IMG/VR virus record: IMGVR_UViG_3300033144_003744
Span: 1 to 64,000 of that record
DNA from: a virus
DNA: 64,000 bases
Direction: 5' to 3' (one strand)
In this document: piece by piece, positions 14,476-54,316 of the stretch
How the letters are laid out: the number at the start of each line of letters is the position of its first letter
Position numbering within the stretch: position 1 is the stretch's first letter
The notes under the pieces: generated by a model
The model's database searches: none
The model's input: only the letters and a program-made list of their open reading frames with translations
What the model was told of the DNA's origin: nothing
Program-made: the position numbers and the translations under genes

Positions 14476-16089
14476 CTACCATTGATCAGCGCCTCTTATT
14501 CTCTTAGATGTCAATAAAGTATTTAAATTCCATCCCATACTATTAAAAATATTTTCTAATTTGCCAGGAATTAATTTATCAATCATTGCATCAACATCTA
14601 TTGTTAGATTTTCTATTTGTTCTGCGGTTTCAAAGCCCACAACACCATCATCTTTTACATTTAATTGTTCAGCAGCTTCATCCATCATTACAATAATCAT
14701 ATTTACCACATCACCTTCAGAATTAAGGTTAGTTTTAAGATTATCATTTGCCCAAATTGCTGCCTTTACATGGTCACTCTGTACTTTATATTTTTTCAAT
14801 GGTTTTTTTATCTTTTTCTTAATACAAATATCCTCAATCGAAAACTCATTATTTCTTAATCCTTGAACAATATTCTTCACATCAGAAAATATTACTTCTT
14901 TATCTTTTTCGTGTAAAATATTATGTATTGTATCTTCCTGAAGAGTTTTCATTATTGTGGTAGTAAGTTTCTTTTTTGTCTCGAAGCCCTGAATTTTATA
15001 TCCTTTCTTATCATCCATTGGATACATTCCAGCATATCTATTATTACCAACAAGTAAGAAACTTTCCATACATTTTTCCAATTCAATTTTAAATTTTCCG
15101 GGGATTAAATTATATTTTTCATCCAATTCATGCATAGATTCATTTATTGAATTTTCTATATCTTTAGCAATTCCAAGAAGTTCATTATAATCTATATCAT
15201 TCCAAGGAACATGTATAAATACAGAATCAGTATGTCCATAAATTATCTCAAATGATGGATAATATTCTTTAATATGTTCTATTGAGTGCTTTAAAGCTTG
15301 TCTACTTAACCAAGTGATACTTGCAGCAATGTCAGGATCATACAATCTTGATCCAGCATAAGCCATCCAACCATAGAATGAATTTTTTAGAAACTTTGTG
15401 GTTCTCTGTTTATTATCCCACTTGTTCCAATCTGAAGACTTTTCTGGGTACTTATCTCTTTCAACCTTGTAGTACTCACGCTTATTCTGAATGTCCCCTA
15501 GAAGGCTTGTGGTCAATCCTGGTGGACTTGACACAAAGGATACTCCATTACCTAATTTAATATCTCCATCTTTCTTTTTTGTTTCAAAAGACATGTTACA
15601 AGCTTCCATTGAAGAAGGATAAAGAGATTTATAATCTAAAATTATAACATTCTTATAAAATCCAACTTTAGGCTCTATAATCATTGCTCCTTCATACGGA
15701 ACTTTTTTATGATATCTACCAGTTGAAAGAACAATACCTCTCTCTTTTGCTTTGCGAAGATGTGCTATGTCAACAAGATCCTTATTATAAAATGTATCGG
15801 TAAATGTACAACCGGATAATCTTTGTCTATCCATAAATGTATCTACAATACTAAATTCATTATCAATCCATACTGTCCCTTCGACATCTCTTTTACTGTA
15901 TTGCAAGAAATTCTCAAAATCTTTTTCGTAATCATCCATTCCATACAATTTTCTAATCGGTGCATCGTTATTTTCAAGAACTGCTCGTAATCCTTGAGGT
16001 CCTATATCTCCATCACTTAATTTTTTATAACCAAACATTAAATCAAAGCAAATTCTTCCGAGTATAGGTGTATTTATTTGTTTATGCAT
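14476..16089 (-). CDS. polB: Family B DNA polymerase, C-terminal part (ExoIII and polymerase domain)
   Basis: GRICFDL, YSKRDV (ExoIII), DYKSLYPS, KFLKNSFYG, YGHTDS; GAGGT SD before ATG at 16089. Confidence 0.93.
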   Translation of the reverse strand: MHKQINTPILGRICFDLMFGYKKLSDGDIGPQGLRAVLENNDAPIRKLYGMDDYEKDFENFLQYSKRDVEGTVWIDNEFSIVDTFMDRQRLSGCTFTDTFYNKDLVDIAHLRKAKERGIVLSTGRYHKKVPYEGAMIIEPKVGFYKNVIILDYKSLYPSSMEACNMSFETKKKDGDIKLGNGVSFVSSPPGLTTSLLGDIQNKREYYKVERDKYPEKSSDWNKWDNKQRTTKFLKNSFYGWMAYAGSRLYDPDIAASITWLSRQALKHSIEHIKEYYPSFEIIYGHTDSVFIHVPWNDIDYNELLGIAKDIENSINESMHELDEKYNLIPGKFKIELEKCMESFLLVGNNRYAGMYPMDDKKGYKIQGFETKKKLTTTIMKTLQEDTIHNILHEKDKEVIFSDVKNIVQGLRNNEFSIEDICIKKKIKKPLKKYKVQSDHVKAAIWANDNLKTNLNSEGDVVNMIIVMMDEAAEQLNVKDDGVVGFETAEQIENLTIDVDAMIDKLIPGKLENIFNSMGWNLNTLLTSKRIRGADQW

Positions 16090-16090
16090 T

Positions 16091-16567
16091 TTAGACCTCA
16101 TTTAGACATACATATTCTTTAAATAATTCCTTTGCCTTTTGATTATAAGCTCTTGCTGCATCATCTTCATTCTCAAAATAACCCAAACTATAATTTTTTT
16201 TATTAAAACCTATTTGTCCCTGCCATTTTTTAATATGTTTATGCCAACTAACACCTTTATAACCAGAGGTATTATTTTTTTGTTTTATTTTATTCATTTG
16301 ATTTTGAGAATGTGTTACTATTCTAAGATTATTTTTTTGGTTATTTAATGTATTTCTATCTATATGATCAATTTCAAATCCTTGGGGTTCACCCATTATT
16401 AATCTATGCATCTTTTTTCTTTTTGATTTACCATTTATTTTAATATCAGAAATTGCATACTTATTTTTTTTATCATGTAAATGCCATTTATACTGAGATA
16501 ACATATCATAATCTTCATCATCGACCAAAACTATACCTTTATTATTTGATAATTTTATTTCTTTCAT
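16091..16567 (-). CDS. HNH-AP2 homing endonuclease inserted in polB
   Basis: MHRLIM, IDHIDRNTLNNQKNNLR, SGYKGVSW, LGYF..EDDAARAYN. Confidence 0.92.
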   Translation of the reverse strand: MKEIKLSNNKGIVLVDDEDYDMLSQYKWHLHDKKNKYAISDIKINGKSKRKKMHRLIMGEPQGFEIDHIDRNTLNNQKNNLRIVTHSQNQMNKIKQKNNTSGYKGVSWHKHIKKWQGQIGFNKKNYSLGYFENEDDAARAYNQKAKELFKEYVCLNEV

Positions 16568-17214
16568 GCTTCCACTTGTCCAATTGGTGATAATTCATTA
16601 GGATTCAATCCAATTCTGTACATACGATTAATAATATAGGGAATATCAAAATTTACTAAATTCCATCCACAAATCATATCGGGATTATATTCTTTCATAT
16701 CCTTAGTAAAATATTTCAACATTTCTTTTTCAGATTCAAAAATATATATGTTCCAATTATCATTATGCCTTTCATTTTCACCAACATATCCTTCTTTCCA
16801 CGATAAAGTAATATATTCATTAATAAAGGAATCCCAATATGTTATTGCAATTATTGCTTTATCAGTCTTCTTTGTGTCAAGTCCCATATCGGTTTCTATA
16901 TCAAGATGCCAAACTCTTGGTTCATATTCAGGAAGAGTTTCGAAGTTATCAATTAAAAATCTGTTCTCTATTGAAACATCAACCTCATATGAATCAGTTA
17001 ATGATTTAGCAAAATAATATCTTAAATTTGGTTTGTTGTAATACTTCTTAAATACAGTTGTATTGTGTATTGTTTTTGCTGTTCCTTTATTTGTAACTTC
17101 ATTAGAATAAAAATATGGAAAAAATACTTCACGTTTTTCTATAAGTTCTCTTCCTTCTCTGTAACGATAGTAAATACTTGGCTTTCCCTCTGTTCCTAAA
17201 TTATCAATAATCAT
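16564..17214 (-). CDS. polB: Family B DNA polymerase, N-terminal part (ExoI and ExoII)
   Basis: PYFY, RFLID, LDIET, GWNLVNFDIPYIINR, LSPIG. Confidence 0.9.
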   Translation of the reverse strand: MIIDNLGTEGKPSIYYRYREGRELIEKREVFFPYFYSNEVTNKGTAKTIHNTTVFKKYYNKPNLRYYFAKSLTDSYEVDVSIENRFLIDNFETLPEYEPRVWHLDIETDMGLDTKKTDKAIIAITYWDSFINEYITLSWKEGYVGENERHNDNWNIYIFESEKEMLKYFTKDMKEYNPDMICGWNLVNFDIPYIINRMYRIGLNPNELSPIGQVEA

Positions 17215-19792: not shown

Positions 19793-19823
19793 AAATAAAA
19801 AAATAGTGGAATTAACCACTATA
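19793..19823 (-). terminator. Hairpin plus T-tract terminator
   Basis: Minus strand ATAGTGG-TTAATT-CCACTAT followed by a T run. Confidence 0.55.
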
Positions 19824-21111
19824 GATCTTCCTTCGTAAAATCCTCTATGTCAAAATCTGTCTTTAGATCTTCAAATGCATAAACTCCAAATGCATTCAAT
19901 CTCATTGGACCAACTTCTTCACCCTCTGCCTTTCTACCCCTGGTGGGGAAACAAGTTAGAAGTACACGACTATCTGTTCCAAAATCAATTGTATTTGCTT
20001 TAGCTACCCAAGTAGTTATATTTGACTGAATCTTCTCTATATCAAAATCTGCTCTCAATGATTCATCATCTACAACCATCTTATCTGACCAATCTTTCTC
20101 TGGGTCAAGATTTGGATATAGTTCCATAACATCTACTTCTACTAATATAGCCTGATTATGTAAACCATATGTTCTTGCTTTCTTTTTGGCTTCGACATCA
20201 ATTAAGAAATTTTCTACTTCGCCCAATACTACTGTTTTATCAGCCATGAAGTCTAATTCTAAAATAGACTCTATAAACGAAGCTTCACCAAATGGATTCC
20301 AATCAGTATCTACAAATACAGCCTGTTTAGGCATATTCATTAGATTATAGTCTATGTCATCTTTCTTAGTGAAGTTAAGTGCTCTGACCACATATGCATT
20401 ATTTATAGCTGGCATAGTCTGAGTTGCAGTATCTCCTCGAAGCATGAATCTAGCCCATTTAGCATCTCCACCGGATTGTGGCTCTGCTACTCCATATACA
20501 TACCTGGAATATTTATGTCTTGGATATTCAAGACCATATCCTTTATTTGCTTTACTACCAAAACCAAACTCATTAATATCTACAGGCGCAATCCAAAGGC
20601 CAGATTCTTCTCCAAATTCTTCTGCATTATCAGAAACTTTGGCAACAATTTCTTCAATAATAGGCTCATATTCTTCTGAAGCTGGATCTTTCATGGGGTC
20701 ATAATCCTTGGCTTCAATATCTGTAGTATAAAAATGACTATGATATCTTTTAAGAATACCCTCGTCTACTTCTGTATATTCATTTACTCTACCTTCCATT
20801 ACATACTTATTTGGATTAGCTTCATAAAGTTCTACAGCTTCCTTTCTATTATAAGAAACTCCATCCTTTATATCAGATATACCCATTACAAAGAAGTTAA
20901 ATGGCTTTGCTGGACTGTTTTCAATAGCTACCAGTTCTGCCCTATATTTCTGTCTAAACAATGCCTGTGCTCTCTGATCGAGTTTCTCACCAGTCAGTCT
21001 ACCATTATATTTCTGTTCTATGCTATCTCTATAATCAGCAAATTCATTTGCTAATTCATCTGTACTTTTGCCTACCTTAGAAGATAGGTCTACTAAAAAT
21101 TCATTACTCAT
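19819..21111 (-). CDS. Putative single-stranded DNA-binding (RPA/OB-fold-like) protein
   Basis: Acidic 430 aa protein with beta-rich segments and acidic tail, directly upstream of the ATPase; mostly positional inference. Confidence 0.4.
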   Translation of the reverse strand: MSNEFLVDLSSKVGKSTDELANEFADYRDSIEQKYNGRLTGEKLDQRAQALFRQKYRAELVAIENSPAKPFNFFVMGISDIKDGVSYNRKEAVELYEANPNKYVMEGRVNEYTEVDEGILKRYHSHFYTTDIEAKDYDPMKDPASEEYEPIIEEIVAKVSDNAEEFGEESGLWIAPVDINEFGFGSKANKGYGLEYPRHKYSRYVYGVAEPQSGGDAKWARFMLRGDTATQTMPAINNAYVVRALNFTKKDDIDYNLMNMPKQAVFVDTDWNPFGEASFIESILELDFMADKTVVLGEVENFLIDVEAKKKARTYGLHNQAILVEVDVMELYPNLDPEKDWSDKMVVDDESLRADFDIEKIQSNITTWVAKANTIDFGTDSRVLLTCFPTRGRKAEGEEVGPMRLNAFGVYAFEDLKTDFDIEDFTKEDL

Positions 21112-21595: not shown

Positions 21596-22501
21596 TTATT
21601 TTGCCCGCTTCAATAAAACTCTTTTTAATACAGGAACGCATTGTTTAGCTATGAGTCCACGTAATTCCTTAAAATTTATTCTGTCAAAATCTTTGTATAT
21701 CTCAATTGAATGTTCTAAAAAAATATCTTCTGCAACCGCGTTAAATAATACAGGAATTAGAGACATATCTATTTTATATCCTTCATCCGATAATTTATGA
21801 ATTGTTTTTTCTATTCTTGCATTAGTGCCATAAGTCAAAGATATTAATTTTGTAGAATTACTCTCTTTTGGTGGCTGATCACTGCCCCCAAATGCCAATT
21901 TATTTTTTTCTTTGAACTCATCCGTTACTATTTTTGCAAATAAAGGCTGTTCAAATTTATTTAATCTGCTGTAATTCTTTAAAACTACACCCTCTGCTGA
22001 ACCGTCTTTATATGCTGAATTTTTTATACATTCCTCTAATTCTTCTATAGAAATTTCACTTCCATCTCTTTCAAAGTGAATGTGAATAAATTCAAGCCCA
22101 AGAGATTCAAATTTTTCTTTTGCTTCTTTCCATGATAAAAATAATTCAGTTTCTGTATTCCAAATATCATAACCTATAAATCCAGGGACATCATCATTAT
22201 ATTTTATAGTATGACGTTGAAGGCTTTCTCCTATGTAAAGATATTTTGAACTAAATTTATCTTTATATAACCCGTATGCTTCTATAACAGGAAGTATTGC
22301 ATTCCATCCTTTTGGGTCTTTCTTATCTACCATAACTCTATTTCTGCTAGCAAAAGTTAATTCGTTGTTATCTAAGAAAAAACAAAAATTTGCACCATCC
22401 ACTTTTTCTTGAACAACGACCTTCCCATCAAAAATTCCTTCTGTCTCAATTGTTCCGAGTGCTTTTATTTTTATGTATTTCTTCCATATCATATTAATCA
22501 C
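21596..22501 (-). CDS. ATP-dependent RNA ligase (Rnl2-like)
   Basis: QEKVDGAN motif I, SRN, GE, FIGYDI, EGVVLKN, AKIV..EFKE. Confidence 0.85.
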   Translation of the reverse strand: MINMIWKKYIKIKALGTIETEGIFDGKVVVQEKVDGANFCFFLDNNELTFASRNRVMVDKKDPKGWNAILPVIEAYGLYKDKFSSKYLYIGESLQRHTIKYNDDVPGFIGYDIWNTETELFLSWKEAKEKFESLGLEFIHIHFERDGSEISIEELEECIKNSAYKDGSAEGVVLKNYSRLNKFEQPLFAKIVTDEFKEKNKLAFGGSDQPPKESNSTKLISLTYGTNARIEKTIHKLSDEGYKIDMSLIPVLFNAVAEDIFLEHSIEIYKDFDRINFKELRGLIAKQCVPVLKRVLLKRAK

Positions 22502-24796: not shown

Positions 24797-25728
24797 TCTA
24801 GCCCTTGAGATATTTTATTTACTATGTGTTTCATATTTTCACAATCAGTTACAATTTCTTTTAGTATTTTATTTCTTTCTGTTTTTTGATAAGTTCCCAT
24901 ATATAATGAATGTCCAATCATAGCCATATTATGTGTTTTAATTTTCAATTCTTCATTATCACATTTTAGATGAAATATTGTATTATTATATTTTAAATAA
25001 TATCTCAATGTAGACATCCCATGTGAAAAATTACCATATGTTTGTAAATCATCAGAACATCTTATTATTATATTATAATAATCTATTAAATTTTGATATG
25101 AATTACCATAACTTAATATGCGTTTTTGGTCATTTTCTCCAACTAACATTATTTTCTACCTCAATTTATTATTATTTATTTAGAACTAGCACTTATACAT
25201 CATTATTATCTAAATCGCAACCACTATTTTCAAATGCTCCTACAAGATACACTATAAAAACACTTATTAATGCCATGAACATAGCATTTTGAAGAAGTTG
25301 TATAAAAAAGAATATAGATATAACAAATTGCAGAATATTAATCTTTGTATTCCATTTCATTATGTTATCTCATATAATTATCTTGTCATTTTTATTCTCA
25401 CCGTATTCTTTATTCAAACATTTTCTACATAAATTAGTTTCAATATTCAAATGTAATGTGGTTCTTTCACATCTCTTGCATTTACCATTTGTGTATTTCA
25501 TTTTTTATTACCTCCAATCTAACAGAATAATTACATTATTATATGTTTTGTATTCCAGTGCATTTTTATTTTTCATATATACACCTCTACCCAATTTTTT
25601 CATTACTCTTAATGTCATATCTGTTATACTAGCACGTATAAACGTATATCCATATTCTGGATGTATTGTTACATATGCATTTGGTATATTTATGAATCCT
25701 TTCATATTTATTCTCCATTTAAATTAAA

Positions 25729-25902
25729 GCTGATGGTCGGTATTGCACCAGACATATATCTATTTCACCAGCAATTTCTAGCCCGAAGGCTTTGTTCTAT
25801 TCTGCTTATACATGGTATATCATTCGGCTTTACACATCGCCTTTCGAGGATTGTGTCGCAGTCGTCAAACCATCCACAAAGGGTCTCTACAACCCCTGTT
25901 TC
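25729..25902 (-). ncRNA. Putative structured ncRNA ending in a mini-tRNA element
   Basis: GC-richer intergenic stretch after a TATA box; hairpins including AGCC-TTCG-GGCT; 3' module GCTGGTG/CATCAGC plus GTC(T)GG-TGCAATA-CCGAC. Confidence 0.6.
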
Positions 25903-25905
25903 ATT

Positions 25906-25938
25906 ATACACTTAATATGTGCTTATCGTATATATAGA
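25906..25938 (-). promoter_or_regulatory. Viral promoter motif, copy 1
   Basis: TATA followed by ATACGATAAGCACATATTAAGTGTAT; 25/26 identical to 48198-48223. Confidence 0.7.
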
Positions 25939-25986
25939 TATTCATTAGAAATATTTATATACTTAAATCAAACATATTATACTAAT

Positions 25987-27380: not shown

Positions 27381-27788
27381 TTAGTATCCATTATTTGCAC
27401 ACTTCATATCATTCTTAATTTTCTTTATTTTATTTATACCCTCAATATGATGATGCTGTTCACATGATATTTCTTCTACAATTCTTTCAAATTGTTTAAA
27501 TTGAAATTTTCTACTTCCAGAACAGAACCCATTATAATTTGTAATAAATTCATTAAATCTTAATATATTATTGAGTCCATTAATAATCAATTTATTATCC
27601 TTTACTTTAGATTTTATATCTAGACCTTGTAAGGTCTTAACAATATCAGATATTAATTCTTCTTCTTTTGATACTAGAATGAAACCAATTCCGACTGCAT
27701 GGCCAGAACCGTATTTTTCATTCTTAGTAATATTTACTTGAAAGGAACCTGCTATTTCTATAAGTCCCAATAGCCTAATCGGTTCCAT
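27381..27788 (-). CDS. Single-motif LAGLIDADG-like protein, catalytic acid apparently lost
   Basis: LLGLIEIAGSFQVNI; C-terminal H..IEGINKI..IK..M typical of the family. Confidence 0.65.
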   Translation of the reverse strand: MEPIRLLGLIEIAGSFQVNITKNEKYGSGHAVGIGFILVSKEEELISDIVKTLQGLDIKSKVKDNKLIINGLNNILRFNEFITNYNGFCSGSRKFQFKQFERIVEEISCEQHHHIEGINKIKKIKNDMKCANNGY

Positions 27789-28371
27789 AGTACTTCTCCA
27801 TTATCAAGTTCTGCATATTTTCTGGACTATTAAGAAAATCATTACTATCTTGTACCTCATCCCACAAAGAATCTGTACCATTTTCTGGTTTAACAGATTC
27901 TACTTTCATTTGTTCCTTTGGAACTATAATATTATCATACTTATCTAGAGAATCAATTACATTAATACTAGCATTGATCCTACAGCCACAAGGTGTTGTT
28001 ACCCTAGCATTACTATCTGTGTACTGACCATCACATATTAGAAGGCAGTAGTCTCTGTTGTTAAGTAATGTATTCCTATCCGGTCCAGAAAATGTCCTAC
28101 ATCCATTTGGATGTGAATGTATTAGGCAATTAAATTTTAATGGTATTACTTCGTTAAAACGTACTTGAACTGAAGTGTTTTCCTGATCTGGTATGTATAA
28201 ATCTACTAATTCGTTATCTTCAACAATGCCATAAATTGCTATCTCAATTCCGTGTCGTAACCCATAACGATAAACATCAAAGATTTCTTTATCTAATTCT
28301 TCTGGTATAAATAATTCATACTCTTGATGTGGGCAGTTATCATGTATGTTTTCTTCTAATTTCCAAGTCAT
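27775..28371 (-). CDS. JAB/JAMM (MPN+) metallopeptidase
   Basis: Upstream Glu (EIAIYG), PDQE, exact HxHx7SxxD motif HSHPNGCRTFSGPD. Confidence 0.9.
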   Translation of the reverse strand: MTWKLEENIHDNCPHQEYELFIPEELDKEIFDVYRYGLRHGIEIAIYGIVEDNELVDLYIPDQENTSVQVRFNEVIPLKFNCLIHSHPNGCRTFSGPDRNTLLNNRDYCLLICDGQYTDSNARVTTPCGCRINASINVIDSLDKYDNIIVPKEQMKVESVKPENGTDSLWDEVQDSNDFLNSPENMQNLIMEKYYGTD

Positions 28372-28961
28372 TATTTTATCCTCCTGATATCAAATGAAAC
28401 ACTTACTTTTTCTTCTGTTCCTGATGTAACTAAACCCATAGCGTGTGCAGCTACCATTGTTACTGTGGGAGCACATATTCCAGTGTATGAACTTACATCA
28501 CTGATGTTCCAGGTTGTAGATTTGGGAATCTTATTTGTAATACTATATCTTGTCTCATTAGCCCCAAGTGTCCAGATTGGCTTCTTATCAGCATGTTGCT
28601 GTATAGGTACTTTCATGGGATAATCTATACAATTCATTATTATTCCATTCATCTGAAACACATCATCTGGGTCTTCTATAAATGGATGTTCTATAACTTT
28701 CAATGATCTAAACCTTCTCAATGCTTCTGAACATAATTTAGTCTTCTCTTCTCCTTCTGACCATGCAGGATATGGTAGACGATTCCTATTGTGGTACTCT
28801 AAGGTGTCTCTATCATAAATATGAATCTTGGGTACACCTAAAAGAGCAGCATTATATGCAACCCAGGTTCCTACTCCACCAACTCCCAGTATGTGAATCT
28901 CTTCTGGAATAAAAAGATTCATTGATTCTTGACGATTATACACTCCAAGTTTTTCGCTCAT
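28371..28961 (-). CDS. ThiF/MoeB/E1-like Ubl-activating enzyme
   Basis: YNRQ, ILGVGGVG, YDRDTLEYHNRNRL, K, NCID. Confidence 0.9.
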   Translation of the reverse strand: MSEKLGVYNRQESMNLFIPEEIHILGVGGVGTWVAYNAALLGVPKIHIYDRDTLEYHNRNRLPYPAWSEGEEKTKLCSEALRRFRSLKVIEHPFIEDPDDVFQMNGIIMNCIDYPMKVPIQQHADKKPIWTLGANETRYSITNKIPKSTTWNISDVSSYTGICAPTVTMVAAHAMGLVTSGTEEKVSVSFDIRRIK

Positions 28962-29619
28962 GTGACACACCTCTCTCTTCTTGTGATTTGATTATTTTTC
29001 GTACTTGATTCTGTAATGTTCTGTATGGATATTGTCTATGATACGGTGAATCTAAATTTGCAATACTTACATGTTGTTTTATCCTAGACACCATAAACTC
29101 ATCCACTTTATCTATGTTTAAATTACCAGTACATAATGATCCACAATCAGTACCATCTTGATGAATGTAATTATGAAGTTCCCCATAATATCTAACTGCA
29201 TTACCAGATTCTTTATCAACAGTTATTTTTATAAGACCATGTACATATATTTTTTTAAGATCATCTGGAATAGAATACTTTGTTCCATAACGAACTATAG
29301 TTTTTATTTGTTCATAAATATAAACACTATACTCAATATATCCTTCTGTGATAATATATGGTATTGTTGAATCTTCCATGTTTACAATATGTTCACTGGA
29401 GTTTTTTATATTGTTTAGTTCATATTTCTTTTCATTAATTTTATTATCTAACTTATTAATTTCACTTCCTTGATTCTGCAAAAATACATTAATGGTTCTA
29501 TTTAAGTTAGATATATCAGCTAATTCTGTTCTAAATCCATCAATAAAATTAATAAATTTACTCCTTCTATCTTCAATAGAATTCATAAAATTTACAATAT
29601 CAGTATCTATTCCATTCAT
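28936..29619 (-). CDS. Coiled-coil plus putative prokaryotic E2-like conjugating domain
   Basis: N-terminal heptads; HNYIHQDGTDCGSLCTGN resembles E2 HP..dG.lC.G; downstream ANLDSPY; lies between Ubl and E1. Confidence 0.6.
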   Translation of the reverse strand: MNGIDTDIVNFMNSIEDRRSKFINFIDGFRTELADISNLNRTINVFLQNQGSEINKLDNKINEKKYELNNIKNSSEHIVNMEDSTIPYIITEGYIEYSVYIYEQIKTIVRYGTKYSIPDDLKKIYVHGLIKITVDKESGNAVRYYGELHNYIHQDGTDCGSLCTGNLNIDKVDEFMVSRIKQHVSIANLDSPYHRQYPYRTLQNQVRKIIKSQEERGVSHERKTWSV

Positions 29620-29635
29620 AATCTATCCTCCCGTT

Positions 29636-29663
29636 AAAAAATATATTGGGTGATTAAACCCAA
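29636..29663 (-). terminator. Hairpin plus T-tract overlapping the Ubl stop codon
   Basis: TTGGGT-TTAATC-ACCCAA followed by TATATTTTTT. Confidence 0.55.
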
Positions 29664-29881
29664 CTAGGCTTCTCTGATGTTTCAATTACAATTTCATACC
29701 AATCTGTACCAAGATCTCTAGCTTCATCTTTATCTAATTCGTCCCCATCTATATATACATCAAAACTATTAATACAATTAGCCTTTGCTATATCATATAT
29801 TGTTTCATATGCTGTCTTGTCATCAAAATCTGTTCCCGTTATAATTCCATTTACTGTTACTTTCTTAAAATCTATTTCCAT
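29654..29881 (-). CDS. Putative ubiquitin-like (beta-grasp) modifier
   Basis: 75 aa; beta-beta-alpha-beta(FDVYIDGDEL)-beta(EIVIET) pattern; first gene of the E2-E1-JAB operon; ends KPSWV. Confidence 0.6.
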   Translation of the reverse strand: MEIDFKKVTVNGIITGTDFDDKTAYETIYDIAKANCINSFDVYIDGDELDKDEARDLGTDWYEIVIETSEKPSWV

Positions 29882-29916
29882 TTACTTATGCTCCTTTAAT
29901 TAGGGATAATTCCCAA

Positions 29917-29957
29917 GGGTAGGCATGGAGTTGCACCATGCTAACTCTACTCTACCT
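29917..29957 (-). ncRNA. Mini-tRNA (t-element-like) structure in the Ubl leader
   Basis: GGTAG...GCATGG-TGCAACT-CCATGC-CTACC; begins just downstream of TTAAATATA. Confidence 0.6.
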
Positions 29958-30666
29958 ATATGCGACTGATTATATTTAAGTCTTGGGTTAATTATCCAAC
30001 TACTTCATGACTAACAGATTCACCATTAACTAAAACTTCAACCTTTGGTACATCTGTCATGTCTAATACACTAGCATATCTTGTTTCCCAGAAAATTATG
30101 GTACTATTTATAAAATGTTGATTATCACTTTCAATAATCAAAACATCTCCATCATATGTTGACCATCTGTTTGTGGCTTTATACCTTTTCTGAAAGTGGG
30201 TTTCAATTTTATTACCATATCCATCTGTCCAAGAATTATTATACCAATCTGTAAATCCATGTCTTGTTCTTATTTCCTTAAAACCATTCTTGTTCTTATG
30301 ATATAAATTTTGAGGTATCATTACTAACAATTTATGTGTTATTTCTGTGTCTATTTCTAAAATCATATTCTTATTCTCCTTCCCTTATATTATTCTTTTT
30401 ACATGTAACTATTAAATATGCAACCCATATTAATATTATTTGTTCAATAGCACTACCTAAATGTATTAGATAATTAGCGAATATTACTAAAAATATTACT
30501 AATGTAAATTCTACTATAATCTGTATTATTTTATTAATCATACTATATCCTCCGTTTATCCTATAAAACATTTTATCAAAATTGCCATAATTATAGTCAT
30601 AACCACGGCAAAAGTTACAAATTTATTTGATGCTGGTTGTGATAAATATTTCATTTTAACCTCTTT

Positions 30667-47150: not shown

Positions 47151-47372
47151 TTATTCTATTGGTCCATATGCAGATTCAATAATTTCATAACATCTATCAC
47201 AATCTAAAGTACTTCCTTCCAAATAATAATCAAATACATAATCATTATATTCATTTACATTTAAACCCCTTGCGCATATTTCACACAATACTTCATTTGT
47301 TTTTTTATGCACAAAAATTAAGGGGTATGCATGTTCATGATCAAATATATCTACTGGTATTTCATTTATCAT
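47151..47372 (-). CDS. Small Zn-finger protein, first gene of the leftward early operon
   Basis: YPL...LCEIC...CDRC...IESAYG; GGAGG SD directly after the hammerhead. Confidence 0.6.
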   Translation of the reverse strand: MINEIPVDIFDHEHAYPLIFVHKKTNEVLCEICARGLNVNEYNDYVFDYYLEGSTLDCDRCYEIIESAYGPIE

Positions 47373-47388
47373 AATATTAGTCCTCCGA

Positions 47389-47448
47389 TATTTTTGTTTC
47401 GACTTAATAAAGTCTCATCAGTAATGGTTTAACCATTAGACAAAAATA
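47389..47448 (-). ncRNA. Type III hammerhead ribozyme
   Basis: TATTTTTGTC / TAATGGT-TAA-ACCATTA / CTGATGA / GACTT-TATT-AAGTC / GAAACAAAAATA: complete core and three perfect stems. Confidence 0.93.
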
Positions 47449-47828: not shown

Positions 47829-48192
47829 TCGGTAGTAAAAACGATAGCAATAGATGCAGTTAAAAGAAAAAGAAAAAGTAAATCATATATGTAGTGCCCA
47901 CAGTCTACCGATAGCGTTTTTATTAGACCTGGCCGTGCCCATGAAAACAGTATAAAAAAATTATCAAAAACAAGGTTTCATACTGTGAACTTGAATTGAA
48001 ATAAATTTATGGGATACATTTAAATATTTAGTTAAGAATATTTAGAAAATGGTAAAAAATAAATAGCTTCTACCCAAAAAATTAGGGGGAGTATTTTAAA
48101 CACTATAATGTATTAAACTAACGATTTTTATTTTTTAAAATTTTTTAAAATATTTATACTATACAATAATTCTTTAAATGTAACCCAACACC

Positions 48193-48223
48193 TTTAAATA
48201 CGATAAGCACGTATTAAGTGTAT
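48193..48223 (+). promoter_or_regulatory. Viral promoter motif, copy 2 (leaderless ATG at 48222)
   Basis: TTTAAATACGATAAGCACGTATTAAGTGTAT. Confidence 0.7.
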
Positions 48224-53074: not shown

Positions 53075-54316
53075 ATGAATTTATTAAAAAAATTACCAGA
53101 CTCATATATAGTAGGTGGAGCAGTAAGAGATACTATCATGGGTAGAAATCCAAAAGATATTGATATAGTAACTTCAATGCTTCCAGAGGATGTATTAAAG
53201 AATTTTGACTCTCATCCATTGGGTCAGAAATTTGGTACAGTTGTAGTAAGAGACGATATCGGTGAAGTAGAAGTCACTACAATGCGTAAAGATTTGACAG
53301 GTGGTAGACATCCAGTAGTTGAGTTTACTGATAAAATTAGAGAAGATTTATCCAGAAGAGATTTTAGAATGAATGCAATGGCTATGAATGAATATGGTAG
53401 AATTATTGATCCATTTAAGGGTCAGCAGGATATTATAAACAAACGTATTTCTAGTGTTGAAGATCCTTTAATCACTGTACACCCAATACACGGGGATCCA
53501 CTGAGAGTACTTAGAGCAATTAGATTTTCTATTATTTTAGATTTTGATATTGAACAAGAATTACAAGTAGCAATAATGGATTCCGATCTTTCTACTTTAT
53601 CTGGAGAAAGAATATACTCTGAACTCAAGCAGATGTTTAGTGAGCCTGAGGAAGCCATGAGAGCTTTATATTTCTACAATGTATTGTCCAAGGTACTACC
53701 GGAGGTAGATGATTTATCATGGTGTGTACAGAGTGTTCAGTGGCACCCTGAGGGAGATGCATTAGAGCACACCATTCTTGTAATGGAAAGAGTAAAGGAA
53801 CATGGTCCATTAGCTGTAATGGCCGCTATGTTACATGATATAGGTAAACCTGTAACCAGGGAAGGAATGACCTATCATGGCCATGCAAAAGCTGGAGTAG
53901 AAATTGCAGAATCTATTATGAGAAGATTGGGTAGACCTAAAATTGAAGTTGAAGCTGTTAAATTTGTAGTAGAAAATCATATGAAAATTAAAGAAATAGA
54001 AAATATGAAAGTATCTAAATGTAGAAAATTATATGATAGTCCACATTTTGATTTGCTTATGTTGATTGCCAGGGCTGATAATGCAGATAAACATAATGAT
54101 TCTATGTTTGAATTTATTGAACAAGATAATTTAGTTAAAGAAATTAATATTGAACCTTTGCTTGATGGATATGATCTAATAGATTTAGGTCTAAATGGTT
54201 CTGATATTGGTAATGTTCAAAAAATATTAAAAGAATTACAATTAGAAAAAATTATTAGAACTAAAACTGAAGCTATTAGTTATGTAAATATATTTAAATA
54301 TTTAGGTGGTGAATAA
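53075..54316 (+). CDS. cca: Class II (bacterial-type) CCA-adding tRNA nucleotidyltransferase with HD domain
   Basis: VGGAVRD, DID, EVTTMR, DL.RRDF..NAMA, DPLRVLRAIRF, ERI..E, HPEGD..EH, LHDIGKP. Confidence 0.9.
   Translation: MNLLKKLPDSYIVGGAVRDTIMGRNPKDIDIVTSMLPEDVLKNFDSHPLGQKFGTVVVRDDIGEVEVTTMRKDLTGGRHPVVEFTDKIREDLSRRDFRMNAMAMNEYGRIIDPFKGQQDIINKRISSVEDPLITVHPIHGDPLRVLRAIRFSIILDFDIEQELQVAIMDSDLSTLSGERIYSELKQMFSEPEEAMRALYFYNVLSKVLPEVDDLSWCVQSVQWHPEGDALEHTILVMERVKEHGPLAVMAAMLHDIGKPVTREGMTYHGHAKAGVEIAESIMRRLGRPKIEVEAVKFVVENHMKIKEIENMKVSKCRKLYDSPHFDLLMLIARADNADKHNDSMFEFIEQDNLVKEINIEPLLDGYDLIDLGLNGSDIGNVQKILKELQLEKIIRTKTEAISYVNIFKYLGGE

What the first reader, a model, noticed from the sequence alone, without database searches (positions are those of the whole stretch)
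29636..29980. Ubl gene is framed by a mini-tRNA leader and an internal terminator
Seen on the minus strand in order: TTAAATATA box; GGTAG-(10 nt)-GCATGG-TGCAACT-CCATGC-CTACC (acceptor-like stem stacked on a T-arm with a 7-nt T-loop, no D or anticodon arm); a small GGGA/TCCC hairpin; AAGGAG SD; the Ubl gene; a hairpin with T-tract before E2. Known: Haloferax uses such a t-element upstream of 5S rRNA as a tRNase Z cleavage signal. Inference: the Ubl mRNA is processed or stabilised by tRNA-processing enzymes and made in excess over E2/E1/JAB, as expected for a modifier.
Basis: partly seen in the sequence, partly recalled or inferred. Interest (0 to 1): 0.72.

Follow-up and report, generated by a model that had tools for sequence, protein, structure and literature searches.

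The report
tRNA top-half mimic heading viral Ubl operon
A short RNA fold that copies only the top half of a tRNA sits just before a ubiquitin-like gene module in this uncultured virus and in a distant relative. It probably marks where tRNA-trimming enzymes cut the viral message, but no RNA data test this yet.

Summary

**Chance alone.** The leader hairpin is unremarkable by itself.
- RNAfold z is -1.2 to -2.2.
- ARAGORN and Rfam call nothing.
- The bare architecture is common by chance.

**Comparative support.**
- The one distant homologous locus I could fetch, L002 (JGI contig; Ubl 50% identical, E2 37%), has the same 5-bp stem, 10-nt linker, 6-bp arm and 7-nt loop in front of its Ubl gene. 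Its T-loop is canonical.
- All 22 of 22 pair cells are kept. 4 of 11 pairs changed on both sides.
- A small hairpin and the SD follow in both loci.
- A covariance model built from the two finds a third copy in the same virus, outside the window, at another gene junction (23.8 bits, E about 1e-4).
- A weaker fourth lies at 25729-25772.

**Module.** The element heads a movable Ubl-E2-E1-JAB module that cold-seep relatives lack.

**Not settled.**
- Cleavage by RNase P or tRNase Z is inferred, not shown.
- The T-run of the "internal terminator" is not conserved in L002, but a hairpin at that junction is.

The scan's earlier notes describe similar elements in other viruses.

Verdict: a real, conserved element and a new variant of known t-elements.

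The parts
29969..29979 (-). AT-rich box TTAAATATA overlapping TATAAT. It is a candidate promoter of the module, unproven.
   Evidence: Read. The sigma-70 scan lists TGGATA-18-TATAAT, 10 of 12 matches, but such sites are not enriched (27 found against 32 +/- 5.9 expected). A cold-seep contig keeps 29956-29990 without the module behind it.
29918..29956 (-). 39-nt tRNA top-half mimic: a 5-bp acceptor-like stem, a 10-nt linker, and a 6-bp T-arm with 7-nt loop TGCAACT. The 3' strands are contiguous, giving an 11-bp stack.
   Evidence: Conserved with compensatory changes in L002 1102-1140. Covariance-model score 57.3 bits.
29915..29917 (-). Discriminator-like base, then TT. This is the expected tRNase Z cut region.
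   Evidence: N-TT follows the stack at window copy 1 and in L002, and at the weaker copy at 25729-25772. At the third copy it also does in the 5+6 register of the model alignment; in its 6+6 register the base after the stack is T, then TTTT. No CCA is present. Cleavage is inferred.
29903..29914 (-). Small hairpin GGGA/ATTA/TCCC, 2 nt after the discriminator.
   Evidence: L002 has GGGG/ACGAG/CCCC at the same place, with one pair changed on both sides. It folds in both minimum-energy structures.
29891..29896 (-). Shine-Dalgarno AAGGAG, 9 nt before the ATG.
   Evidence: The same AAAGGAG is present in L002.
29654..29881 (-). 75-aa putative ubiquitin-like protein, ending ...SEKPSWV with no terminal Gly.
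   Evidence: ORF. Relatives at 79% and 50% identity. No Pfam family. The Atlas's own model (pLDDT 0.58) is nearest ThiS/MoaD-named clusters, TM 0.50-0.59 in 6 of 8 rows.
29635..29664 (-). Hairpin with the Ubl stop codon in its loop, then a T-run. A terminator-like attenuator between Ubl and E2.
   Evidence: A look-alike with the same TTAATY loop ends gene 19819-21111. L002 has a hairpin but no T-run here.
28936..29619 (-). 227-aa E2-like protein with a coiled-coil N-terminus and conserved IH..G..LC.G and ANLDS motifs.
   Evidence: No Pfam or PADLOC hit. Only 5 representatives among 1.84 billion proteins. Alignment.
28371..28970 (-). E1-like ThiF-family adenylating enzyme.
   Evidence: Pfam ThiF 3.5e-12. 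PADLOC E1-E2 models down to 2.4e-6.
27775..28371 (-). JAB/JAMM-like peptidase. The last gene of the module, overlapping the LAGLIDADG gene start.
   Evidence: Prok-JAB E 0.014, below Pfam's cut-off. An HSHP...S..D motif is read; the motif definition is recalled.
25729..25772 (-). Weaker variant of the element: a 7-bp stem, a 12-nt linker, a bulged 5-bp arm and loop TGCAATA. It lies 23 nt before the ATG of a 65-aa ORF (25508-25705).
   Evidence: It folds this way at minimum energy (z -1.86, 8 of 200). It shares TGGTGCAAYWCC with copy 1 (2 exact hits against 0.01 expected). It scores only 9.1 bits, E 9.2, with model R1 and is absent from the R2 list at E<=5.

Best explanation
**What it is**
- The 39-nt element is a conserved RNA that mimics the acceptor-stem and T-arm half of a tRNA.
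- It forms the 5' edge of a movable Ubl-E2-E1-JAB module.

**Most likely mechanism**
- It is a cis-acting punctuation mark. The host's tRNA end-processing enzymes recognise the T-loop elbow and the stacked helix.
- RNase P cuts before the first G. RNase Z cuts after the discriminator base.
- This frees the module's message from whatever transcript it is embedded in.
- The new 5' end lies 2-3 nt before the small GGGA/TCCC hairpin, which would then protect the message.
- The hairpin at the Ubl/E2 junction lowers output of the enzymes relative to the modifier. In this virus it carries a T-run; in the relative it occludes the E2 ribosome site.

**Shown:** the structure, its conservation, its recurrence at gene junctions, and the modularity.

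**Inferred:** recognition and cleavage by tRNA enzymes, the protective role of the second hairpin, and the stoichiometry.
For: **1. Independent locus L002.** L002 has an unrelated upstream gene (BLASTP E 13).
- It carries the same 5/10/6/7/6/5 layout directly before its Ubl homolog, with the loop and its closing pair reading GGTTCGATTCC.
- 22 of 22 cells are paired. 4 of 11 pairs changed on both sides and 1 changed on one side. Slid controls pair only 32-50%.
- Each sequence's own minimum-energy alternative fails in the other: 6 of 16 and 5 of 13 pairs are broken.
- The chance of such an element in a random leader is 25-41 in 200,000.

**2. T-loop signature.** G closing, U, N, C, R, A, N, N, C closing is present in all 4 elements.

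**3. Third copy found by the model.** Model R1, built from 2 sequences, finds a third copy at genome 76160-76204. It scores 23.8 bits, E 1e-4 over 25.5 kb and 3.7e-4 over 89.5 kb.
- It overlaps the stop codon of a 196-aa ORF and lies 20 nt before the next ATG.
- With three sequences, 33 of 33 cells pair, 7 of 11 pairs changed on both sides, and 0 of 500 shuffles reach this. That alignment was fitted to the model, so it leans towards the structure.

**4. G-U pairs.** They occur only on the coding strand. This argues for RNA rather than a DNA palindrome.

**5. Modularity.** Cold-seep contigs of relatives join 27789 to 29992 with 8 letters between. Another contig keeps 29956-29990 and then differs. 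The module therefore starts at the element.

**6. Precedents.**
- t-elements are cut by RNase P and tRNase Z in Haloferax (PMC4326828 passages).
- t-elements define mRNA ends in plant mitochondria, with non-templated C/A added to the released cox1 leader (PMC1920247 passages).
- RNase P, RNase Z and CCA-adding enzymes measure the T-arm/acceptor stack from the elbow (PMC4919913 passages).

**7. Context in this virus.**
- Another leader carries an RNA-cleaving element just before an SD: Hammerhead_3, 41 bits, E 1.6e-7.
- The virus encodes a tRNA nucleotidyltransferase (phrog_2244, 4.1e-70) and an RNA ligase, yet has no tRNA gene.
Against: - No RNA data exist for this virus, so no cleavage, transcript end or CCA has been seen.
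- Only one distant locus could be compared.
- The closest relative's contig in run X2 matches 29334-29881, but its further 161 nt did not lay at 80% likeness. The leader sequence is therefore not well conserved there, and I could not read those letters.
- The stack is 11 bp in the window and in L002, not the 12 bp of tRNA.
- Position 55 of the loop is G in the window.
- RNAfold prefers other folds by 0.9-2.5 kcal/mol.
- ARAGORN at default settings and Rfam see nothing.
- At ARAGORN's lax setting, 2 of 34 candidates in the genome end at the elements, but neither of L002's 2 candidates does.
- The third copy's arm closes into a 9-bp hairpin followed by a T-run. It also fits a plain terminator.
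- The fourth copy is not significant by the model.
- The host domain is undetermined.
Confidence: 0.4

Rival explanations
1. It is a conserved intercistronic stability or expression hairpin that does not use tRNA enzymes. The stacked hairpin, with the small hairpin after it, protects the 3' end of the upstream message or the 5' end of the downstream one, or it sets ribosome loading. The T-loop likeness is incidental or merely gives a compact loop.
For: All copies lie at gene junctions, 20-36 nt before an SD and ATG. The third copy doubles as a hairpin plus T-run directly after the capsid-gene block. The stack is 11 bp, not 12. RNAfold alternatives are close in energy.
Against: The loop keeps U54, C56, R57, A58 and the G-C closing pair in 4 of 4 copies. 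It is fully canonical in L002. A plain stabiliser does not need this, nor a 10-nt one-sided bulge of constant length.
Confidence: 0.28
2. It is a binding site for a protein or RNA that recognises the tRNA elbow. Candidates are the virus's own tRNA nucleotidyltransferase, a translational repressor, or a host factor. The site would regulate or tag the message rather than cut it.
For: The virus has a class-II CCA-adding-type enzyme and no tRNA genes. The T-loop signature is conserved.
Against: A CCA-adding enzyme needs a free 3' end at the discriminator, which itself requires a cut. No RNA-binding regulator was identified in the module.
Confidence: 0.15
3. It is a DNA-level relic: the 3' part of a tRNA gene kept as an attachment or recombination site at the edge of the inserted module.
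For: The element lies exactly at the module's 5' boundary. L002's arm looks like a real tRNA T-arm. Integrases often use tRNA 3' halves (recalled).
Against: An att relic would not carry a matching 5' acceptor strand, nor keep it paired through changes on both sides. No integrase is in the module. G-U pairs fit only the RNA strand.
Confidence: 0.07
4. It is a chance hairpin with no function. The likeness to L002 is residual homology.
For: Fold z-scores are weak. The bare architecture is common. There are only 2-4 sequences.
Against: 9 of 22 stem positions differ between the window and L002, and all 11 pairs survive. Random leaders hold such an element in 25-41 of 200,000 trials. The model finds a third copy at E about 1e-4.
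Confidence: 0.05

Closest known systems
Haloferax volcanii t-elements (the tRNA-like structure upstream of 5S rRNA; Hoelzle et al. 2008 and 2012, as cited in PMC4326828)
   Same: A tRNA-like fold inside a longer transcript serves as a substrate of RNase P and tRNase Z, so that the neighbouring RNA gets a defined end (passages read).
   Different: Those flank rRNA and engineered crRNA in a cellular genome. Here the element heads a protein-coding module of a virus and recurs at other gene junctions. Cleavage is untested. I could not read the 2008 paper, so the exact shape of the Haloferax element is not compared.
Plant mitochondrial t-elements (Forner et al. 2007, PMC1920247)
   Same: tRNA-like structures sit at the 5' or 3' ends of mRNAs and act as signals for RNase Z and/or RNase P. 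A conserved pseudouridine arm lies before the cox1 mRNA 5' end, and non-templated C/A is added to the released leader (passages).
   Different: The system is organellar. The cox1 element described there is a 74-nt tRNA-like fold. The viral one is 39 nt, lacks D and anticodon arms entirely, and has an 11-bp stack.
Acceptor/T-arm minihelix model substrates of RNase P, RNase Z and CCA-adding enzymes
   Same: The same two stacked helices and T-loop elbow that these enzymes measure (PMC4919913 passages). That minihelices are accepted as substrates is recalled, not read here.
   Different: Those are laboratory constructs with a 12-bp stack. This is a natural element with a 10-nt 5' linker and an 11-bp stack.
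Viral and cellular tRNA-like processing signals (MHV68 tRNA-miRNA transcripts, MALAT1 mascRNA). Recalled, not read here.
   Same: A tRNA-like fold recruits tRNA end-processing enzymes to cut a longer RNA.
   Different: Those are eukaryotic systems with full or near-full cloverleaves.
Intrinsic (hairpin plus U-run) terminators
   Same: The Ubl/E2 junction hairpin with TTTTTT and the third copy's arm both fit the pattern.
   Different: The minihelix before the Ubl gene and its L002 counterpart have no T-run. L002's junction hairpin has none either.

Membership tests
t-element (tRNA-like processing signal) | Acceptor-like stem coaxially continuous with a T-arm | tested here: met
   The 3' strands are contiguous in all 4 elements. 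Pairs are kept in 22 of 22 cells (2 sequences) and 33 of 33 (3 sequences, with the alignment fitted to the model).
t-element (tRNA-like processing signal) | T-loop signature: 7-nt loop with U54, C56, R57 and A58, closed by G53-C61 | tested here: met
   TGCAACT, TTCGATT, TACAATA and TGCAATA, each closed by G...C. Position 55 is U only in L002.
t-element (tRNA-like processing signal) | Stack length like tRNA (7+5 = 12 bp; recalled) | tested here: inconclusive
   11 bp in the window and in L002. 11 or 12 bp in the third copy, depending on register. 12 bp with a bulge in the fourth.
t-element (tRNA-like processing signal) | Transcript ends at its edges, or cleavage by RNase P / tRNase Z | not testable with these tools
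   No RNA run was available, and there is no wet assay.
tRNA gene | Cloverleaf with D and anticodon arms, called by ARAGORN or the Rfam tRNA model | tested here: not met
   ARAGORN finds 0 in the window, the genome and L002. Rfam finds 0 at gathering score and no tRNA match at E<=10 on L001 and L002.
Intrinsic terminator (for the Ubl/E2 junction) | G+C-containing hairpin directly followed by a T-run | tested here: met
   7 pairs, 3 of them G-C, then 6 T. Fold z is only -0.78. It is not conserved as a terminator in L002. Function is untested.
Ubiquitin-like beta-grasp modifier (ThiS/MoaD/Ub) | Beta-grasp fold | tested here: inconclusive
   No Pfam hit at threshold. The PDB profile search gives nothing relevant.
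Ubiquitin-like beta-grasp modifier (ThiS/MoaD/Ub) | C-terminal Gly (Gly-Gly) for adenylation | tested here: not met
   The tails are ...EKPSWV...EKPSGV and ...EKPAR in 5 of 5 aligned proteins. A trimmed or non-Gly terminus cannot be excluded.
Prokaryotic Ubl-E2-E1-JAB conjugation operon | E1 adenylation domain, E2 with catalytic Cys, and a JAB peptidase next to the Ubl | tested here: inconclusive
   E1 is met (ThiF 3.5e-12). JAB is below the cut-off (0.014), with the motif read by eye. E2 has no family hit, only a conserved H...C pattern.

The most novel reading that the evidence does not exclude
A movable ubiquitin-like conjugation module carries its own tRNA-mimic 'punctuation mark'. Wherever it lands in a viral polycistronic transcript, host RNase P/Z excise a clean, hairpin-capped message. 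The same mark is reused at other junctions of the virus. The released minihelices (or the cut upstream messages) are the substrates of the virus's own CCA-adding enzyme, which would explain why a virus without tRNA genes encodes one.
Probability: 0.15. Interest if true: 0.8.

Novelty: new variant of a known kind. Interest (0 to 1): 0.6.

Why it matters
- tRNA-like processing signals inside messages are documented for plant mitochondria and for Haloferax. In three full-text searches I found no description of acceptor/T-arm minihelices as gene-junction elements of viruses of bacteria or archaea.
- If tRNA enzymes do cut here, viruses would have a compact, portable way to make an inserted gene module independent of its transcript context and to set the ratio of its products.
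- It would also give a testable substrate for virus-encoded CCA-adding enzymes in genomes that carry no tRNA.
- Earlier notes of this scan report similar 'minihelix plus hairpin' units in other uncultured viruses. Those notes are unchecked AI notes, but the motif may be a widespread, uncatalogued RNA class worth an Rfam-style family.

Tried and rejected
**Searches for homologous loci that found nothing**
- The search for related loci in viral contigs, seven queries: E2, Ubl, P0006, ORF124, alignment A3, P0017, P0009.
- The search for related loci in metagenome contigs with A1.
- The search for related loci in genome contigs with P0009 and A3.
- blastn of the operon and tblastn of two E2 proteins against 50,697 phage records.
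- Only (P0015, metagenome contigs) gave a locus, L002.

**Sequencing runs.** Two DNA holders with small word shares were listed, from marine sediment and cold seep. No RNA holder was listed. Laid contigs gave the module's absence in relatives, but the table was cut and I could not read the relatives' leader letters.

**Ideas considered and rejected**
- A real or degenerate tRNA gene.
- A terminator of ORF124, because no T-run follows the element.
- The element as a dispersed repeat. The repeat finder did not list it. TGCAACT alone is not enriched: 9 matches against 5.4 +/- 2.2 expected.

**Host domain: not settled**
- The PolB atlas search gave mixed taxa.
- SD motifs of both GGAG and GGTG types are enriched before starts, which fits either domain.
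- The ERCC4-HhH nuclease and the three-domain ATP ligase hint at archaea. The class-II CCA enzyme hints at bacteria.

**Other**
- PDB profile searches for the Ubl and the E2 gave only chance or coiled-coil matches.
- Supplementary files were not consulted. None bears on a claim here.
Full report
**Where the window lies.** The window is bases 1-64000 of an 86,903-bp IMG/VR virus record with direct terminal repeats. Its G+C content is about 29%.
- It encodes a portal, a terminase, a split family-B DNA polymerase, NrdD, an ATP-dependent DNA ligase, an RNA ligase, a C5 methylase and an ERCC4-HhH nuclease.
- It also encodes a class-II tRNA nucleotidyltransferase.
- The major head protein lies outside the window.
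- No tRNA gene is called in the window or the whole genome.
- Small shares of its words occur in a marine-sediment and a cold-seep DNA run.
- Whether the host is bacterial or archaeal is not settled.

**The observation.**
- The order is: stop of a 124-aa ORF (29992), TTAAATATA (29979-29971, overlapping TATAAT), the 39-nt element (29956-29918), C, TT, the small GGGA/TCCC hairpin (29914-29903), AAGGAG, and the 75-aa ORF (29881-29654).
- Then comes a 7-bp hairpin holding the stop codon in its loop, TTTTTT, GGGAGG and the next ORF.
- Downstream lie a 227-aa protein without any family hit, a ThiF-type E1 (3.5e-12), a weak JAB match (0.014) and a LAGLIDADG gene.

**Is it more than chance?** Taken alone, no.
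- RNAfold z-scores are -1.47, -1.23 and -2.20.
- The minimum-energy fold of the 39 nt is an extended hairpin in which the linker pairs with the loop.
- ARAGORN and Rfam report nothing.
- 'Stem, one-sided linker, stacked hairpin with a 7-nt loop' occurs 385 times in the genome, as in shuffles (377 +/- 21).
- With the full T-arm signature there are 2 loci against 0.235 expected, and 6 of 200 shuffles reach 2.

**The comparative test.** The E2-like protein has only 5 representatives among 1.84 billion proteins. The Ubl has two clusters at 79% identity. One relative lies on a JGI contig, L002, of 2,408 nt.
- L002 carries an unrelated 155-aa gene (BLASTP E 13 against ORF124), a 68-nt spacer, a Ubl homolog (50% identity), an E2 homolog (37%) and a second E2 paralog.
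- The spacer starts at the upstream stop codon with GGTGG, 10 nt, CCTAGG, TTCGATT, CCTAGG, CCATC. Segment lengths are identical to the window's, and the T-loop is canonical.
- It continues with A, TTA, a GGGG/CCCC hairpin, AAAGGAG and ATG.
- MAFFT aligns the two elements without gaps.
4 of 11 pairs differ on both sides and 1 differs on one side. Sliding the partners gives 32-50% pairing.
- With two rows the shuffle control is weak: 31 of 500 shuffles reach the observed value.
- The window's own minimum-energy fold loses 6 of 16 pairs in L002. L002's own fold loses 5 of 13 in the window.
- So the tRNA-like fold is the only one of the three tested that pairs fully in both.
- Random 74-nt leaders of like composition contain such an element in 25 or 41 of 200,000 trials.

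**Further copies in the same virus.** A covariance model of the two sequences (R1) gave no second significant hit in the window (12 matches at E<=10).
- In the rest of the genome it found 76160-76204 (+) at 23.8 bits, E 1e-4 (13 matches listed) or 3.7e-4 over 89.5 kb.
- That site reads GGAAA, 11 nt, ATTGGG, TACAATA, CCCAAT, TTTTC, A, TT. It overlaps the stop codon of the 196-aa ORF that follows the major head gene and lies 20 nt before the next ATG.
- With three rows, 33 of 33 cells pair, 7 of 11 pairs changed on both sides, and 0 of 500 shuffles reach this. That alignment was fitted to the model.
- This copy's arm also closes into a 9-bp hairpin followed by a T-run, so it fits a plain terminator too.
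It has a 7-bp stem, a 12-nt linker, a bulged arm and loop TGCAATA, 23 nt before a 65-aa ORF, and it folds that way at minimum energy (z -1.86).
- That copy shares TGGTGCAAYWCC with copy 1 (2 exact hits against 0.01 expected). It scores only 9.1 bits (rank 9 of 12) and is missed by the three-sequence model R2 (5 matches at E<=5). I count it as a probable variant only.

**The module.** Contigs of relatives in the cold-seep run lack the whole stretch.
- One contig joins 27789 directly to 29992, with 8 other letters between.
- Another keeps 29956-29990 and then runs on differently before the LAGLIDADG gene.
- The movable unit therefore begins at the first base of the element, as it does in L002.
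- A contig of a closer relative that has the module matches 29334-29881. Its next 161 nt did not lay at 80% likeness, so the leader's sequence is not strongly conserved there. I could not inspect it.

**The Ubl/E2 junction.**
- The window's hairpin and T-run fit the terminator pattern. They resemble the element at the end of gene 19819-21111, which has the same TTAATY loop holding the stop codon. The fold z is only -0.78.
- L002 has a stronger hairpin at the same junction (z -4.13, 0 of 200 shuffles). It contains the Ubl stop, the E2 SD and the E2 ATG, and has no T-run.
- A junction hairpin is thus conserved, but termination is not. Either form would lower E2 output relative to the Ubl, which is inference.

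**Mechanism.**
- RNase P, RNase Z and CCA-adding enzymes recognise the T-arm/acceptor stack and elbow (PMC4919913 passages).
- t-elements serve as their substrates in Haloferax (PMC4326828 passages).
- t-elements define mRNA ends in plant mitochondria (PMC1920247 passages).
- Taking these with the conserved fold, I judge a processing signal the most likely role (0.4).
- A cut after the discriminator would leave the conserved small hairpin 2-3 nt from the new 5' end.
- The same virus places a type III hammerhead (41 bits, E 1.6e-7, below Rfam's gathering score of 48.5) directly before another SD. Leader cleavage is therefore at least in character.
- Against this reading: there are no RNA data, the stack is 11 bp, position 55 is non-canonical in the window, and the third copy is terminator-like.

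**Promoter.** This is unresolved.
- TATAAT at 29974-29969 would start transcription about 6 nt before the element.
- An archaeal TATA box read from TTAAATATA would start it inside the element (spacing recalled).
- L002 has no room for a promoter before its element.

**Novelty.**
- Three full-text searches listed no description of such elements in viruses of bacteria or archaea.
- The scan's own earlier notes report look-alikes in other viruses. Those notes are unchecked.
- I file this as a new variant of the t-element kind.

Noticed in passing
window 27790-29991: The whole Ubl-E2-E1-JAB stretch, with its leader, is absent from related viruses in a cold-seep run. One contig joins 27789 to 29992 with 8 letters between. 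Another keeps 29956-29990 and then differs. The stretch is an accessory, movable module.
   Followed up: partly
window 47391-47446 (-): A type III hammerhead ribozyme match (RF00008, 41 bits, E 1.6e-7, below the gathering score of 48.5) lies 18 nt before the ATG of ORF 47151-47372. It was not listed at gathering threshold but is clear at the E-value threshold.
   Followed up: partly
window 53075-54316 (+) and 21596-22501 (-): The virus encodes a class-II tRNA nucleotidyltransferase with an HD domain (phrog_2244, 4.1e-70) and an RNA ligase (phrog_548, 3.7e-32). No tRNA gene is called in the 86.9-kb genome.
   Followed up: no
window 25906-25942 and 48187-48223: A 37-nt inverted-orientation repeat (86% complementary) carries an AT-rich box followed by a conserved block of about 24 nt. 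One copy runs straight into an ATG (48222), which suggests a leaderless start. The other heads about 175 nt without a convincing ORF that end in the weaker minihelix.
   Followed up: no
window 19803-19822 (-) and 29645-29664 (-): Two gene-end hairpins share the design 'stop codon inside a TTAATY loop, then a T-run' while their stems differ.
   Followed up: no
L002 1394-2083 and 2040-2408: The relative carries two tandem, overlapping E2-like paralogs after its Ubl gene (the second resembles P0008). The contig ends before any E1 or JAB could be seen.
   Followed up: no
window 14476-17214 (-): The family-B DNA polymerase is in two ORFs (exonuclease part 16564-17214, polymerase part 14476-16101), separated by an HNH-AP2 endonuclease gene (16091-16567).
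   Followed up: no
genome 76160-76204 (+), outside the window (L003 12260-12304): A third minihelix-like element overlaps the stop codon of the 196-aa ORF that follows the major head gene. Its arm plus the following T-run also fits a terminator.
   Followed up: yes
window 29654-29700 (-): The putative Ubl and its 4 aligned relatives all lack a C-terminal Gly (tails EKPSWV, EKPSGV, EKPAR). EKP is invariant.
   Followed up: partly
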